Source of the DNA: Phallusia mammillata
Lineage: Eukaryota
Direction of reading: 5' to 3'
DNA length: 64,000 nucleotides
Assembly (NCBI GenBank): GCA_965637545.1
Contig: OZ281498.1
Span: forward strand, 20,956,001 to 21,020,000
Position numbers: made by a program. Positions 3,001-15,000 of the stretch are shown here, one piece after another. Positions within the stretch are counted from its first letter, which is position 1. Every line of letters begins with the position of its first letter.

Positions 3001-6000
3001 TACACTTAACGAAATACCACAGGGATTGCTGTAAGATTAGTTGGTATAATGCTTTCGAGGGAATATGCATGTCGCCTATTAGCATCTTAAGTTTCGTTAT
3101 AAGCGATGCATACATTCCTCCCTTGTTGCCCTAGTATGCTATTCGCTAAAAAGTAAAGTTTATTCTAAACTACGGACTATATAAAACAGGTTGGGTCTTA
3201 AATAAAACGAAGTTACACCACAAAGATGAACGTACACATTTTTTGAGTAATTAATAAAAATTAAAAGTCGAATTTTGCAAACTTGCTTGTATAACTGCTT
3301 AAAGAAAACGTTTAAACTTTTTGAAAACTGGTCCATACTTCTGTTTAAAACCAGATTTTTTGTTTTTGGATAAAGTACTTCATTTGAAAAAGTCAAAATA
3401 GTTGTCAAAACCGTATGTTTACAAATATATAGACTGTCAGAAGTTTCTTTTTAGAAGTTTAAAGAAGTTAAATAAATATTTAGCTGAATACTTCACCAAT
3501 CATTGTTCTGGAAACAGCTGAAACTGTTGCAGTAATTGTTCGTTGAACGATTTTCGAAGAAAGACAAGAACTGGTACTAACCAAGTTGGACATAACGTAA
3601 CATTAGGATAAAAATACTCAAAATTAACCATGATCCGTTATCAAGACGTCACATAGTAAATCTCAGAAAGAGTTTAAATCTAATCGAAACGTTATCATCT
3701 CGGAAATCAAGTTAGCATTAACTTATGATGTCACTAAACTGCTTGTTTTAAATAAATATGTAGTTATGACGTCATGTTTTTTGACGAAAAATTTTGTGAG
3801 CGCACTTATGCCCTGAAACAACGGGTCGTACAGTGACGTCACCATGTTTCAAACTTTAGTGTGTAACTGTTGCATAAATACTGTAATAAAGTGGTAAAAG
3901 TTAAAGCAAATACCTAATGTAGGTGTGCAGAAAAACTTCAGAAGTGTCATACAAAGCCAATTAATTCCCAAGAACGTAACTCGAATAACTTGATATAACC
4001 ACATTGCCCAATTGCAGATAGACAATTAATTTGCACATAGGTTAAAAGTACAGTTGATGTCAATTCGACTTCGAATAATGACATACCTTTTTATTTTTGT
4101 ATTTTATTTACTTTGTTGTTACCAATTTTTTATTTAAAGTTTATGATTTACTGGGTGGTTACAAATTTGGGCGAAAACGTGTCTTTTACGAAATATAAAT
4201 TTAATTCGGTAATTTTGACTGTAAATGCTTTATATCGAAGTGCTGTCAGATTTTGACAGACTAAGCGTTTTTTCGAAACAAAAAAGCCTTAACAAAGCAA
4301 TACGGGCGCTCACATACCAAAATGCCAAAACATGCGACAGCATCGTTACAGAAAATAGTCTGACTTCTGAGAAGACCGGACGGGGTCACAAAAGGCCAGA
4401 GCAGGTACAAAATATAGAATATATCCTGGATTGTAGGATGGGCTCAGTCAATGGATATGTAATGCAATCACGAATTGGGTTTACCGTGAAACGTTGTGAA
4501 CATAAAAATCCCCACTATGTAGACAATTTACAAACACCGTGCATGAATATGGAAATAGTTCCGGTAACAATACACGTTTTGGCGAAACTTATTTAAATTG
4601 GTCGTGAAAAAAATGGCTTGCTTGGAAGGATAAGCATTTCGCGTTAAAAAGTGGGTTTCTTAAAATGCGCAAAAAGCTTTTGTGTTAATACGTTATGCGT
4701 TATCGTCATGGCCAACACTATTTTTTTATTAGAATGAATAAAATACTACAGTCGAAAAAATGACTTTAAAAAATCTTCTTTAAAGTGACAAAGAACGTTT
4801 TTTTTTAAAGGATACTATCAATTGACACTAGACGAAGACTTTTGAAAGTTAATGGATAAAAAAATGCCAAAGAGACTAAATGTAGGTTGACTCGTTCCAG
4901 GCAAATAATATTAGTTGTATTTGTTTTTTTACATTGTGTTTTTTTACAATCTAATAAAAAAAACAACGATTGTTAAAACGTTTGCAAAGAATTTCTTTAT
5001 TATAATACATCTTTCTGGCAGTTTTGTTTTTAATCAATGTAACAGTTTTCACAGTAGGTGGTTGAATTAGTCAGCATATCGATCCGAAAATCAAGACGCC
5101 AATTAAATATCATCCAAACCCTGTGAATGCAAATAGGACACAGAAATAAAACGTTCAAACTAACACGTTCAGCTCGCAAACCAAGACTTCGTGTTGGGCT
5201 GTCTGTTTGCCGCAGGTAGCACACCACGTGACACCATCACGATTGTGACGTCATTATAGGGAGGAAAGAAGTGTCAGGCAAGAAAGAGACGATGGGTCGC
5301 TGCTACCTAGAGCATAATTGCAACGGCCTTTCGCAGTGCGGTTGTGTTTTGAATTCGTTATCAAATAGTTTTAATGTGGGACTATGGGATAACGGTTTAA
5401 ACTGCCACCTTCCGTTGAGAATTTGCGTGCAGCGTAGATGTATAGCGGTAACTATGTTTTATTTCAATAAAAAGACTCATTGCATCAGAGAGTAGACGTA
5501 TATCAGTTAGAATATAAATATTTTGGTTATAAACTTGAACGAAAAGTTAAACAAGTGCTAATTCTTAACTTTAGGGTAAGCGAAGTATGTTTAACTCAAT
5601 TAAAAGTTACTCAAAACTCAAAGCTTTTTTAACGAAGTAGTTTCTAAAAAAATATTTTACTGTACAGTTGAAGGGTTAGAGAAGTGAATTAGTAACCCGT
5701 ATATAGTTAACCATGAGGTCATCATTCGTTGCTACCTGCTGCCTGTTGCTATGCGCTGTGACATCATCAACAGCGCAGTTCGATCTGAATTTCAACATCG
5801 ACGATATGCTTGTTAAGGATTACCTCTTTTGGCGCGCCATTTTCTCAATCACGCAAAACACAGGTGAGTGTGTGTGACGTCACTATGGCGTTCAGTGACA
5901 TCATAGACTATGTGTTAAATAGAATGATGCAACACAAGGTATCCTTTGAAAAATCAAGGTGTACGGATATTTAAACGCGAAAAATTTGGGTCACAGAAAT

Positions 6001-12000: not shown

Positions 12001-15000
12001 TTTTTTCCCCACAAATATTATTTTCAAATATTTTACTTTGAATTTATTTTTGACAGCTATTTCTGACGAGTGTCCCCAAACTTGCCACAAAGACGGATTA
12101 TGTCTTCGATCCACCATCGGTTTCTCGCAATGCGTTTGCAAATTGGGATACGACGGCGACGGAATACGTCAATGCACACGTACGTATTTCATACTGTTAT
12201 ATTTGGTTCTATTTGAATAAGGAAAATGTGATGCTATCATAACACAAACTTGCTAAACATAAGTAAGTAAATAAATCTTTCTATTTCAAATATGTTTAAG
12301 GCACTTTCGCAAATGGTTTTAAAATGCATTTCAATACTTCATGGGTCCACCATTAAAAGACAATGTTTAACTAAGCGCTCATTGCAAAATGTCAATCTTG
12401 CATGTATGACCAATTTAAAAATACATTTAAGTGAAACTAGTCACTTTTTGCAGCCGATTCGCCAACAGTACTAAACACTGTTCCTCCCGTATCTGCTGTG
12501 TGCAATCCAACTTGTGGACAAAATGCATTTTGCAACGCCGGGCGGTGTCAATGCCTCGACAACCATGTTGGAAATGGATTTAACTGCGTTCGTAAGTACA
12601 ATACTTCTATTATTGATTAACAAGTGATGGAATACTGGTGTACGGGCCTTTTAAGAAAAAAATTACCATCAAACCAGTTTATCATTATGATTTGCTAGAA
12701 GCGCAAAGCCTATTTATATAAAAGTCTATTGATGTTTTGCATTACCATTTCGCTGAAGCTGTAATTATTATTTTTGCTTATTACTGTTTGTGGGACTTGT
12801 TTTGAAATAAATTGTTTTTTAATAATGTGCAAGGAAGTTTAACTAAACAAAACATTCAATTTTTTTAGCGCTTAGCTCGATCACTGACTTGGGTCCGCCA
12901 CCGTCAGAATGCAACCCTGATTGTACAGACAACGCTGAATGCGTAAAGTCCGATGACCGCTACGTATGTCAGTGCAAAAGCGGATACGTAGGCAACGGAA
13001 TAACCTGCCGAATCTGTGAGTCTAAAAAGGCTACCAAATATAAAATAACCATTTGTCTGACAAATCGTTGCAAAGATACCGAATTAGTATGAATAACAAG
13101 AACGTATTCCAGTGGTTTACAACCTTTGTAGTTCATGGTCCCATAAAGTAACCCTTAAGAGCCCGTTCTATCAAAAATGTAACAGGTAAACTTGTGAAAC
13201 CTAAAGTCATGGGTCATGTCGGTAATCACGACACCTTATTTAACACGAAAATGCCTAAAAAGGTAATTTTGACAACACGAAGGTGTTTAAGTTGGGTCCC
13301 TAAAACACCTGTATATAAATCACTGTCACTATATTTATTGTTGGCCGCCAGGAAACACTCCCTTTTGGGGGTCATAGGCTCCGGTTTGGAAACTCTGCCC
13401 TAAACGTTAAGGAAGATTTTTTAGCCATTGCCGTTTTATGATAATAGCTCTTTTGCCTGAGAGATCAATTAATATATGCCTGCTGGTTACATTGAAAGTA
13501 TACCTTGTTAATTTGTACTTTTTCTCTTTTACAGCCCCCAACGCAATAGCTGACCCAGTCGACCAACCCCAACCCCTACCGCCCCAAATAACACAGCCCC
13601 AGCCCCAACCCCAACCTCAAGCGGATCGAAACGACAACTGTGACGGTCGATGTCACGATAGAGGTTATTGTTTTACCTACAGGTCAAAATCAGAATGCCG
13701 ATGTCATCGTCCGTACACGGGAAATGGCTTTTACTGCTCCAGTAAGAAGAATTTATTTTGATGAAAGGCATAAAACGCCATACCTTATGACAGACCCACA
13801 TTTAGCTAATTTCGATAGGTAGCGCAAAAGCATTTTTACCCATTTAAAACGATATCTGTAAAAGTGATCACGGTTAGGACTTTTAGGGTCGGGGTAAAGT
13901 ATAAGCTTTAAAATTTGAATAAAGCTAGCAATGGAACTTAGTTCCTAATAGAAGTTTTTTAAAAACTTACATCCTAACCCTTTCCTTCTTCAGATGCTAA
14001 ATAAATAATTCAGCTCTTTGCGCTACCTCGAAAACTAGCTATAAATGTGGGTCTGCCGTGAAGTAAGGTGTGAGTAGCTCTACCTTATTTTGTAACCACT
14101 GTCAAAGAGTTGATGTAGTCTATTGGATTTTATAATGACAACTATACTTGACAATTTATTTATTTGGGTTAGCAAAATTTTCAGTACAAATTTTGTGAAT
14201 TTTATCGACGAATTTTGTTTTAATGTTTCGCAGACCAAATGGATTATAGATGCAGATCGGAAAATAATGGAGAAGGCTGTAAAGAAAGTGAAGTATGTCG
14301 ATTTAACGGATTTCGCTTCAGATGTTACATATGGCGTCGTCCTTTTTAAGGTACGTATAATGACACATTATAGACCTGTAAGTTTTATAAACATTTATGC
14401 TCCGCCAAATCAGTTCATGATCGTGAAAATAGCTACTTAAGAAAAAGTTACACAAAAAGAAGCAATGCGCTAAATCAGAGTGCTTTAAATTCTGGCCTGT
14501 AGCTTATGTGCGGCCCGCAAACACTTTTTACATACAATTATCAAATCAATTCAAGTAGCCACAGCCTAACGCTCATCATCACATTGCTGCTCAATGTGTA
14601 TCTCATTTAGTAATACTCTTTAGTTGTGAGAGTAGATTTTAAAGATTTTCGTTTTTAAATCTTTTCAAAACATGTTTGCAATTTTTTGAAATTTTAGAAA
14701 GCAGTTCCTGAAATTAAAAATCTCTTTTGGTTGCAGGATTTAAGGCAAGAAGTTGATACCAGTTCGTTTGTTCCACTACATTTTGTTGTACATTTGTCTG
14801 GATTTTCTGAAGGGCATCTCTCCGTCACTTAATTTGTGTGTATTTATGTATGTGGAGATGCACAAATAAATAAATAATAAACGAAAAAATCGTTGTGGCT
14901 GTTAGCAAAGATGATGAAACAGTTTTGGCCATTTAGTTTTCAGTATTTTAATATTTTTTTAATATTGTATTTTAATATATGCTCAATAGACAAATACGGT

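What the first reader, a model, noticed from the sequence alone, without database searches (positions are those of the whole stretch)
5713..14349. Orphan secreted protein built from 12 EGF modules, one per symmetric exon, with no anchor or partner domain
Seen: signal peptide, a short unique segment starting with Gln, then 12 EGF_3-like repeats separated by Pro/Thr-rich linkers (including a QP repeat) and a basic, aromatic tail. There is no transmembrane, ZP, vWF or enzyme domain, and mostly no calcium-binding EGF consensus. Established: EGF-array secreted proteins act as structural or recognition molecules in marine invertebrates, for example mussel adhesive plaque protein Mfp-2 and the ascidian vitelline-coat sperm receptor HrVC70, whose precursor also has a ZP domain that is absent here. 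Inference: a lineage-specific tunic, adhesive, mucus or gamete-recognition protein. Because every module exon is phase 1-1, any subset can be skipped or duplicated in frame, giving combinatorial isoforms or length polymorphism.
Basis: partly seen in the sequence, partly recalled or inferred. Interest (0 to 1): 0.65.

Follow-up and report, generated by a model that had tools for sequence, protein, structure and literature searches.

The report
Secreted protein of twelve EGF modules
This is a real-looking 14-exon animal gene for a secreted string of twelve EGF modules, an ordinary kind of extracellular protein whose exact job cannot be read from the sequence alone.

Summary
On the + strand, 5713-14349, 14 exons with GT-AG introns (13 of 13) encode about 660 codons. 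These are a 21-residue signal-like N-terminus, a 28-residue unique piece starting with Gln, 12 six-Cys EGF_3-type modules and a 37-residue basic, aromatic tail with 4 Cys. Each module sits in its own phase 1-1 exon and is preceded by a Pro/Thr/Val-rich linker.

No module shows the calcium-binding consensus. I found no TM, ZP, vWF or enzyme domain, and no room for one: three AATAAA lie at 14865-14876 and an IFT88 gene starts at 15607.

- One module per phase 1-1 exon is the general habit of mobile extracellular modules, not a special device.
- Introns share no similarity and the closest exon pair is 80% identical, so nothing points to recent copy-number change.

Secreted multi-EGF proteins are already described in ascidians (HrVC70, Ci-meta1, Hemps, APAP-1) and mussels (Mfp-2). 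The module count matches HrVC70, but the ZP domain of its precursor is absent.

Verdict: a new member of a known kind, of low to moderate interest.

The parts
5713..5775 (+). Start codon and 21-codon signal-peptide-like N-terminus (first part of exon 1)
   Evidence: This is the first ATG of the open frame, which opens at 5707. Kyte-Doolittle hydropathy reaches 2.7 (window 9) over residues 5-16, with small residues at -3 and -1 before Gln22. No signal-peptide predictor was available, so the cleavage site is a rule-of-thumb inference.
5776..5863 (+). Unique N-terminal piece of 28 residues starting with Gln; the exon ends in phase 1 at CAG|GTGAGT
   Evidence: Exon 1 as a whole finds no Pfam family, no PDB sequence at E<=1 and no usable ESM Atlas hit.
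7508..7672 (+). Exon 2: linker plus EGF module 1 (phase 1-1, 165 nt)
   Evidence: EGF_3 at 32.8 bits, E=8.2e-08; splice sites.
7786..7923 (+). Exon 3: linker plus EGF module 2 (138 nt); Cys1-Cys2 spacing is 2 instead of 3
   Evidence: EGF_3 at 28.8 bits; spacing.
8372..8497 (+). Exon 4: EGF module 3 (126 nt)
   Evidence: EGF_3 at 36.5 bits; 80% nucleotide identity to exon 8.
9001..9141 (+). Exon 5: EGF module 4 (141 nt)
   Evidence: EGF_3 at 19.7 bits, E=0.001, below the gathering score; six Cys at standard spacing.
9676..9816 (+). Exon 6: EGF module 5 (141 nt)
   Evidence: EGF_3 at 36.3 bits and EGF_MSP1_1 at 38.0 bits.
10504..10644 (+). Exon 7: EGF module 6 (141 nt)
   Evidence: EGF_3 at 34.1 bits.
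11110..11238 (+). Exon 8: EGF module 7 (129 nt)
   Evidence: EGF_3 at 34.1 bits.
11568..11687 (+). Exon 9: EGF module 8 (120 nt), short linker
   Evidence: EGF_3 at 24.6 bits, E=3e-05.
12057..12179 (+). Exon 10: EGF module 9 (123 nt), short acidic linker
   Evidence: EGF_3 at 21.1 bits, E=3.6e-04.
12454..12591 (+). Exon 11: EGF module 10 (138 nt), with a shortened Cys3-Cys4 loop of 4 residues
   Evidence: EGF_3 at only 14.3 bits, E=0.05. It keeps six Cys and scores 48.8 bits against the gene's own module profile, which was built with it.
12869..13015 (+). Exon 12: EGF module 11 (147 nt), the best Pfam match
   Evidence: EGF_3 at 39.6 bits, E=6e-10. The AlphaFold2 model has mean pLDDT 77.3, two beta-hairpins and a low-confidence linker. 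Its nearest solved folds are EGF modules of NELL1/2, nidogen-1, thrombospondin-2 and uromodulin.
13535..13741 (+). Exon 13: 34-residue Gln/Pro-rich linker plus EGF module 12 (207 nt)
   Evidence: Translation; EGF_3 at 20.3 bits, E=6.8e-04.
14234..14349 (+). Exon 14: 37-residue tail with 4 Cys, 8 Lys+Arg and 7 Phe/Trp/Tyr, ending at the stop TAA (14347-14349)
   Evidence: It is not recognisably EGF: no Pfam family at E<=1, it is absent from the own-profile hit list at E<=10, hhalign probability is 0.3%, there is no PDB sequence at E<=1, and the best fold-search probability is 0.09.
14865..14881 (+). Cluster of three AATAAA polyadenylation-like signals, the likely 3' end of the gene
   Evidence: starts at 14865, 14869, 14876. 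Their use is an inference; no transcript data were available.

Best explanation
An intact protein-coding gene of a compact invertebrate genome encodes a soluble secreted protein of about 640 mature residues.

Shown: after a cleavable signal sequence and a short unique N-terminus come 12 non-calcium-binding EGF_3-type modules. Each is a small unit with six Cys and a predicted two-hairpin fold, encoded by its own phase 1-1 exon. The modules are joined by Pro/Thr/Val/Gln-rich linkers of 4 to 34 residues, and the protein ends in a short basic, aromatic 4-Cys tail.

Inferred: the protein has no catalytic or membrane part, so it would act outside the cell as a beads-on-a-string scaffold. It would be a matrix, coat or cohesive component that offers many similar, individually diverged binding surfaces. 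The Pro/Thr linkers would serve as extended spacers, probably O-glycosylated. The array arose by old tandem exon duplication, with E4, E6, E7 and E8 the youngest block. It has been kept under purifying selection.
For: - Splice structure, exon phases and open frames.
- Six-Cys pattern in 12 of 12 modules. It occurs nowhere else in the six frames of the 64-kb window, and 0 times in 100 shuffles.
- Pfam EGF_3 in 11 of the 13 exon pieces E2-E14 at E<=0.01.
- A PDB profile search hit 35 distinct sequences at E<=0.01; all named in the table are EGF-bearing proteins (NELL2 1.4e-13, Notch1, uromodulin 3.6e-09, COMP, MSP1, nidogen-1).
- Model of the E12 module: pLDDT 77.3, two hairpins, linker block at pLDDT 50. 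Nearest folds are EGF modules at rmsd 1.3-2.0 A over about 30 residues.
- ESM Atlas nearest clusters for E12 are EGF_3/EGF_CA families, score 0.92.
- Only exon 1 is hydrophobic (max KD(15) 2.05; all other exons <=1.03).
- No calcium-binding or Asx-hydroxylation pattern in 0 of 12 modules.
- Linkers total 144 residues: P 36, T 19, V 19, Q 11.
- pN/pS between the six modules of equal length is 0.37-0.86 in 15 of 15 pairs.
- Gene end: in-frame TAA, three AATAAA at 14865-14876, no Pfam family in the three + strand open frames between the stop and the next gene, and IFT88 starting at 15607 (PDB 8bd7, E=2.5e-127, aligned from query residue 14).
Against: - No transcript, protein or expression evidence of any kind.
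- The signal peptide rests on hydropathy and the -3/-1 rule only.
- 5 of the 12 modules are below Pfam's gathering score on their own, and one (E11) has E=0.05.
- No Foldseek match reaches E<=0.001 (0 of 358 listed), as expected for a 48-residue query.
- The joined protein was never searched or folded, so a whole-protein orthologue with a known specific function could exist.
- The stop codon sits directly against a consensus donor (G|GTACGT). This could mean a truncated descendant of a longer gene rather than a finished design.
- The functional statement is generic. Nothing in the sequence picks out a tissue or a partner.
Confidence: 0.8

Rival explanations
1. Egg-coat or gamete-recognition protein of the HrVC70 type. 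On this reading the gene directly encodes the free 12-EGF array that Halocynthia roretzi makes by cutting the ZP part off HrVC120. The product would sit non-covalently on the vitelline coat and bind a sperm protein.
For: [quoted passage not shown] Here there is a signal peptide, 12 modules and a 4-Cys tail in 660 codons. A MAFFT alignment places three of the tail's Cys and its NGF motif on module columns. The symmetric final exon ending in a stop is compatible with loss of a downstream part.
Against: No ZP domain and no space for one. The tail is not detectably EGF. Equal repeat number is weak evidence, because the number varies even within the genus (HaVC80 has 13; CiVC57 has 24 plus vWF, ZP and TM). 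The organism is unknown.
Confidence: 0.12
2. Adhesive or cohesive secretion protein, like mussel Mfp-2 or the Ciona papilla protein APAP-1, which are built of multiple EGF-like domains and form the bulk of a glue.
For: [quoted passage not shown] The architecture here is the same in kind. The Pro/Thr linkers could carry O-glycans; that section notes lectin labelling of the larval collocytes and glue prints.
Against: Composition is not glue-like. There are 24 Tyr in the 625 residues counted (from residue 23) and 10 Lys in the 597 residues of E2-E14. Acidic residues slightly outnumber basic ones (D+E 53, K+R 47). That mussel plaque proteins are basic and Tyr/Lys-rich is recalled, not taken from a call. 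Recombinant APAP-1 is listed at 47 kDa, against about 70 kDa expected here by my arithmetic from 639 residues. The primary APAP paper was not found in the library.
Confidence: 0.12
3. Diffusible developmental signal, like the secreted EGF-repeat proteins Hemps (Herdmania) or Ci-meta1 (Ciona) that act at metamorphosis.
For: Both are secreted ascidian proteins made largely of EGF-like repeats (PMC3760835, passages).
Against: Ci-meta1 has 13 calcium-binding EGF repeats, whereas 0 of 12 modules here fit that consensus. Hemps has 4 EGF repeats plus 3 novel Cys-rich repeats, and no second repeat type is seen here. Long P/T-rich linkers suggest a structural rather than a ligand role; this last point is an inference.
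Confidence: 0.06
4. Truncated remnant: a once longer gene (EGF array plus anchor domain) that gained a stop in the last codon of a symmetric exon and lost its 3' exons. It would now be a decaying or neofunctionalised fragment.
For: If exon 14 is extended by one base to the consensus donor G|GTACGT, it is 117 nt and again phase 1-1, with TAA as its last full codon. A good acceptor follows at 14737.
Against: All 14 exons are open, all six Cys are kept in 12 of 12 modules, and pN/pS is below 1 in 15 of 15 module pairs. This argues for a gene under constraint. Reading past the stop into the piece after 14737 meets another stop within 7 codons (read). No domain-bearing frame lies before IFT88.
Confidence: 0.08
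5. Not a gene: a chance or repeat-derived set of open frames.
For: None beyond the lack of transcript data.
Against: 0 pattern hits in 100 shuffles against 10 observed; 13 of 13 canonical introns in one consistent phase; Pfam matches with E down to 6e-10.
Confidence: 0.01

Closest known systems
HrVC70 / HrVC120 (Halocynthia roretzi vitelline-coat sperm receptor) and HaVC80
   Same: Signal peptide followed by 12 EGF-like repeats; a similar length up to the end of the array (cleavage after Arg668 there, 660 codons here). Exon/intron organisation is reported as conserved between the two Halocynthia genes, with one repeat duplicated in HaVC80 (PMC9265791, passages).
   Different: The precursor carries a C-terminal ZP domain, which is absent here with no room for it. 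The 'incomplete EGF' of HrVC120 has no demonstrable counterpart, since the tail here fails every EGF test. Sequence relatedness and expression could not be examined.
Ci-meta1 and Hemps (secreted ascidian EGF-repeat proteins of metamorphosis)
   Same: Secreted, anchor-less, dominated by EGF-like repeats (PMC3760835, passages).
   Different: Ci-meta1 has 13 calcium-binding repeats, against none here. Hemps has only 4 EGF repeats plus another Cys-rich repeat type.
Mfp-2 (mussel plaque protein) and APAP-1 (Ciona robusta papilla adhesive protein)
   Same: Extracellular proteins consisting essentially of multiple EGF-like domains (PMC12817120).
   Different: This protein is not Tyr/Lys-rich and is slightly acidic. 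Its size differs from the 47 kDa listed for APAP-1. The organism and tissue are unknown.
EGF_3-bearing matrix proteins with solved modules (NELL1/2, nidogen-1, uromodulin, thrombospondin/COMP)
   Same: The same module type by sequence profile and predicted fold, including the G-x-G motif before the last Cys.
   Different: In all of those the EGF modules accompany other domains (LamG/vWC, nidogen G2/G3, ZP, TSP type 3), and many of their modules bind calcium. Here the array stands alone and lacks the calcium consensus.

Membership tests
EGF-like domain, EGF_3 type (Pfam PF12947) | Six cysteines at EGF spacing in each module | tested here: met
   12 of 12 modules have 6 Cys, spaced 3(2)-5-4..11-1-10(11).
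EGF-like domain, EGF_3 type (Pfam PF12947) | Match to the family profile at or above its gathering score (28.5 bits) | tested here: met
   7 of 12 modules meet it singly (28.8-39.6 bits). 4 more score 19.7-24.6 bits at E<=0.001, and E11 scores 14.3 bits at E=0.05.
EGF-like domain, EGF_3 type (Pfam PF12947) | Two-hairpin EGF fold | tested here: met
   One module (E12) was modelled: pLDDT 77.3, strands 22-27/30-35 plus a minor hairpin. The top 10 Foldseek PDB matches are EGF modules at rmsd 1.3-2.9 A, but none reaches E<=0.001. The other 11 modules were not modelled.
EGF-like domain, EGF_3 type (Pfam PF12947) | Disulfide pairing 1-3, 2-4, 5-6 | not testable with these tools
   The tools return no coordinates; this needs mass spectrometry or a solved structure.
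Calcium-binding EGF (EGF_CA) | Acidic/amide consensus before Cys1 and the Asx-hydroxylation pattern between Cys3 and Cys4 (patterns recalled from PROSITE and written as regular expressions) | tested here: not met
   0 of 12 modules match either pattern. EGF_CA scores at most 23.8 bits, below its cut-off of 27.
HrVC120/HrVC70 family of ascidian egg-coat proteins | Signal peptide plus 12 EGF-like repeats | tested here: met
   set against the description in PMC9265791.
HrVC120/HrVC70 family of ascidian egg-coat proteins | Incomplete EGF-like domain after the twelfth repeat | tested here: inconclusive
   A 4-Cys tail follows the twelfth module, but it is not detectably EGF.
HrVC120/HrVC70 family of ascidian egg-coat proteins | C-terminal ZP domain in the precursor | tested here: not met
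   Stop at 14347; no Pfam family in the downstream + strand frames; polyA-like signals at 14865-14876; IFT88 begins at 15607.
HrVC120/HrVC70 family of ascidian egg-coat proteins | Sequence orthology and gonad-specific expression | not testable with these tools
   No reference sequence or expression data were on hand, and the primary papers are not held.
Mfp-2-type EGF adhesive proteins | Multiple EGF-like domains as the only domain type | tested here: met
   set against PMC12817120.
Mfp-2-type EGF adhesive proteins | Tyr (DOPA)- and Lys-rich, basic composition (feature recalled) | tested here: not met
   Tyr 24 of the 625 residues; Lys 10 of the 597 residues; D+E 53 against K+R 47.
Ci-meta1-type secreted EGF proteins | A majority of calcium-binding EGF repeats (13 of 19 in Ci-meta1, PMC3760835) | tested here: not met
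   0 of 12 modules.

The most novel reading that the evidence does not exclude
The gene is a ZP-less descendant of the ascidian egg-coat receptor lineage. It encodes directly the free 12-EGF array that Halocynthia obtains only by proteolysis of HrVC120. The stop codon at the very end of a symmetric exon marks the point where the polymerising ZP anchor was lost. That would give a soluble or loosely bound gamete-recognition factor whose modules can diverge one by one.
Probability: 0.08. Interest if true: 0.55.

Novelty: new member of a known kind. Interest (0 to 1): 0.22.

Why it matters
As it stands this is a clean annotation: a well-defined secreted multi-EGF gene with exact exon coordinates. 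It is useful as a candidate when egg-coat, tunic or adhesive proteomes of the source organism are analysed.

It would matter more if it proved to be a free-standing relative of the HrVC70 sperm receptor or a glue component. Its 12 separately encoded, moderately diverged modules would then be a convenient system for mapping which module binds what. The one-module-per-symmetric-exon layout is not informative in itself; it is the expected signature of exon-shuffled extracellular modules.

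Tried and rejected
- **Tail (E14) as a truncated EGF module.** MAFFT aligns it loosely. It is rejected by Pfam (no family at E<=1), by the own-module profile (not in the E<=10 list), by hhalign (probability 0.3%), by PDB sequence search (0 hits at E<=1) and by fold search of a single-sequence model (pLDDT 76.2; best probability 0.09).
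- **N-terminal piece (E1) as a known domain.** No Pfam family, no PDB hit, no usable Atlas hit.
- **Extra or decayed modules, or a paralogous gene, elsewhere in the window.** None found.
- **Recent tandem duplication.** Self-BLAST of 5600-14900 gives only exon-exon matches plus one short inverted match inside intron 13. No intron-intron similarity was seen between repeats.
- **Hidden downstream, upstream or intronic domains.** 10 open frames in and around the gene gave 0 Pfam families. Two upstream frames (1909-2289, 4225-4593) also gave none.
- **Rfam and tRNA scans.** They found nothing inside the gene.
- **Primary HrVC70 papers** (PMC524827, PMC122171) are not held, and the primary APAP paper was not found.
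- **Not attempted because unavailable or pointless.** Whole-protein (joined) search and fold were left out by instruction. The prokaryote, phage, plasmid and E. coli collections cannot hold relatives of an animal gene. No signal-peptide or glycosylation predictor was on hand. The organism was not determined.

Full report
**What is there.** The window is 64,000 bases with no N and about 35-39% G+C. I did not take it for human. Genes are compact, introns are a few hundred bases long, and the neighbours are typical animal genes.

On the + strand between 5713 and 14349, fourteen open pieces line up in one consistent reading.
- Exon 1 (5713-5863) starts at the first ATG of its frame and ends one base into a codon.
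- Exons 2-13 are 165, 138, 126, 141, 141, 141, 129, 120, 123, 138, 147 and 207 nt long. All are multiples of three and all lie in phase 1-1.
- Exon 14 (14234-14349) ends with TAA.
- All 13 introns (113-1644 nt) begin with GT and end with AG after a pyrimidine-rich tract. 9 of the 13 donors read GTAAG/GTGAG-like or GTACG.
- None of the 13 split codons, read, is a stop.

The model comes to 647 residues inside exons plus 13 junction codons, that is 660 codons. By instruction I kept the exons apart throughout. The joined protein was not assembled, searched or folded, so every search result below is per exon or per alignment of exons.

**The modules.** Translating each internal exon in its own frame and aligning the pieces gives a consensus with six cysteines, an 'NA' after the second Cys and a G-x-G before the last. 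Every one of exons 2-13 has exactly six Cys, spaced 3(2)-5-4..11-1-10(11).

Pfam calls EGF_3 in 11 of the 13 pieces E2-E14 at E<=0.01. Taken singly, seven modules pass the curated cut-off (E2 32.8, E3 28.8, E4 36.5, E6 36.3, E7 34.1, E8 34.1 and E12 39.6 bits). Four are weaker (E5 19.7, E9 24.6, E10 21.1, E13 20.3). E11, which has a shortened third loop, reaches only 14.3 bits at E=0.05.

A profile of the pieces finds 35 distinct PDB sequences at E<=0.01. All of them are EGF-bearing proteins such as NELL2, NELL1, Notch1, uromodulin, COMP, thrombospondin-2, MSP1 and nidogen-1.

The best module (E12), modelled with the other eleven as its alignment, gives mean pLDDT 77.3. The model has two beta-hairpins and a poorly defined linker. 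Its nearest solved folds are EGF modules of NELL1/2, nidogen-1, thrombospondin-2, NEL, COMP and uromodulin at 1.3-2.0 A over about 30 residues. No match reaches E<=0.001, as expected for so small a query. The ESM Atlas look-alikes of E12 are EGF_3/EGF_CA clusters, with a top score of 0.92.

**More than chance.** A six-Cys pattern hits 10 times in the six-frame translation of the whole window. All 10 hits lie in this gene, and 100 block shuffles gave none. The two modules it misses differ by one residue of spacing. A profile built from the 12 modules recovers only those 12; the next best open piece in the window has E=0.38. Between the six modules of identical length, pN/pS is 0.37-0.86 in 15 of 15 pairs, as expected for sequence kept as protein.

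**The ends of the protein.**
- *N-terminus.* Exon 1 encodes a basic start, a 12-residue hydrophobic core (hydropathy up to 2.7) and small residues at -3 and -1 before Gln22. This is a textbook signal-peptide layout, but I had no predictor, so the cleavage site is an inference. The following 28 residues match nothing in Pfam, PDB or the Atlas.
- *C-terminus.* Exon 14 encodes 37 residues with 4 Cys, 8 Lys+Arg and 7 aromatic residues. It looks a little like a cut-down module in the MAFFT alignment, but it failed every test of EGF character that I ran. I therefore call it an unclassified Cys-containing tail.
- *Hydrophobicity.* Apart from exon 1 no exon is hydrophobic enough for a membrane span (maximum 1.03 over 15 residues), and the C-terminus is basic rather than hydrophobic. 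There is thus no sign of a TM segment or a GPI signal.

**No partner domain, and no room for one.** After the stop come three AATAAA at 14865, 14869 and 14876. The next + strand gene starts with an ATG at 15607. It is IFT88 (PDB 8bd7, E=2.5e-127, aligned from residue 14 of the query; TPR families). The three long + strand frames between the stop and that ATG, and seven other frames in or beside the gene, match no Pfam family (0 of 10).

**Module chemistry.** None of the 12 modules fits the calcium-binding consensus or the Asx-hydroxylation pattern (0 of 12; patterns recalled from PROSITE). EGF_CA never reaches its cut-off. The stretches before Cys1 total 144 residues and are rich in Pro (36), Thr (19), Val (19) and Gln (11), with a Gln-Pro run in exon 13. 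That such linkers are extended and O-glycosylated is an inference from general knowledge of mucin-like linkers. E2-E14 hold 76 Cys in 597 residues. This is an even number, so all of them could be paired.

**History of the array.** Within the locus only exons resemble each other: E4/E8 at 80% over 126 nt, E6/E8 at 78%, E7/E8 at 75%, and a short E2/E12 match. No intron matches another intron. The array therefore grew by old exon duplications, with E4, E6, E7 and E8 the youngest block. Nothing suggests recent or ongoing copy-number change.

[quoted passage not shown] The only related precedent I found is that HaVC80 is described as HrVC70 with its eighth repeat duplicated (PMC9265791, passages).

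**What it most likely does.** Shown: a secreted, anchor-less, non-enzymatic string of 12 disulfide-rich modules. Inferred: an extracellular scaffold or coat/matrix component presenting many related binding surfaces on flexible spacers. I put about 0.8 on this general statement. I cannot pick the tissue or partner from sequence.

**Comparison with what is known.** From passages read in reviews:
[quoted passage not shown] It is cleaved after Arg668 to the sperm receptor HrVC70.
- Hemps has 4 EGF-like and 3 other Cys-rich repeats. [quoted passage not shown] Both are secreted (PMC3760835).
- Mfp-2 and the Ciona papilla protein APAP-1 consist of multiple EGF-like domains (PMC12817120, passages, section 3.3; PMC9314366, passages).

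The present gene shares the kind of architecture with all of these, and the repeat number and length with HrVC70. It lacks the ZP domain that defines that family's precursor, lacks the calcium-binding repeats of Ci-meta1, and lacks a Tyr/Lys-rich basic composition. I therefore do not file it under any of them. It is a new member of the known kind 'secreted multi-EGF protein'.

**What stayed unchecked.**
- The organism.
- Any transcript or expression evidence.
- The primary HrVC70 papers, which are not held, and the primary APAP paper, which was not found. Supplementary files were not consulted.
- My statement that no matching protein is described rests only on searches of the held library. It is not a claim of absence from the literature.

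**Verdict.** This is an ordinary but cleanly defined gene, with interest of about 0.2.

Noticed in passing
window 14347-14356 and 14729-14760: The stop TAA is followed at once by G|GTACGT, a consensus donor. With that extra base exon 14 would be 117 nt and again phase 1-1, with the stop as its last full codon. A good acceptor (pyrimidine tract then AG) lies at 14737. This is either a 3' UTR intron or a trace of a once longer gene; reading on after 14737 meets a stop within 7 codons.
   Followed up: partly
window 5779-14346 (residue 23 to the last codon; exon pieces only): There is no N-x-S/T sequon in the 625 residues examined, against 5.9 expected from shuffling residues within each exon piece (1 of 2000 shuffles had none). 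The shuffles ignore motif constraints, so the depletion may be overstated. Still, the protein may carry no N-glycans at all.
   Followed up: partly
window 15607-18627, + strand: IFT88 (intraflagellar transport) gene, with an unusually long first coding exon of about 600 codons (PDB 8bd7, E=2.5e-127; TPR families). It starts only about 1.26 kb after the stop of the EGF gene.
   Followed up: partly
window about 22000-41000, - strand: Large BIG/GBF-type ARF guanine-exchange factor gene: Sec7 domain at 32903-33187, HUS at 35177-35455, HDS at 25529-25960.
   Followed up: no
window 31769-31844, - strand: tRNA-Ser (anticodon GGA) lying within the span of the ARF-GEF gene, presumably in an intron (Rfam 48.4 bits; ARAGORN).
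   Followed up: no
window about 49000-62000, - strand: Two or three tandem paralogues of a membrane transporter. Similar last exons lie at 49006-49434, 53152-53598 and 59823-60209 (no Pfam family). Exons at 54419-54769 and 60863-61105 match the sodium/bile-acid symporter family SBF (E=1.4e-04 and 1.7e-05).
   Followed up: partly
window 6762-6949 (intron 1) and 63017-63192: Dispersed repeat, 85% identical over 188 nt, probably a short interspersed element.
   Followed up: no
window about 10200-10330 (intron 6): By eye, a stretch with a tRNA-like T-arm box, which suggests a tRNA-derived SINE. Neither ARAGORN nor Rfam calls a tRNA there.
   Followed up: no
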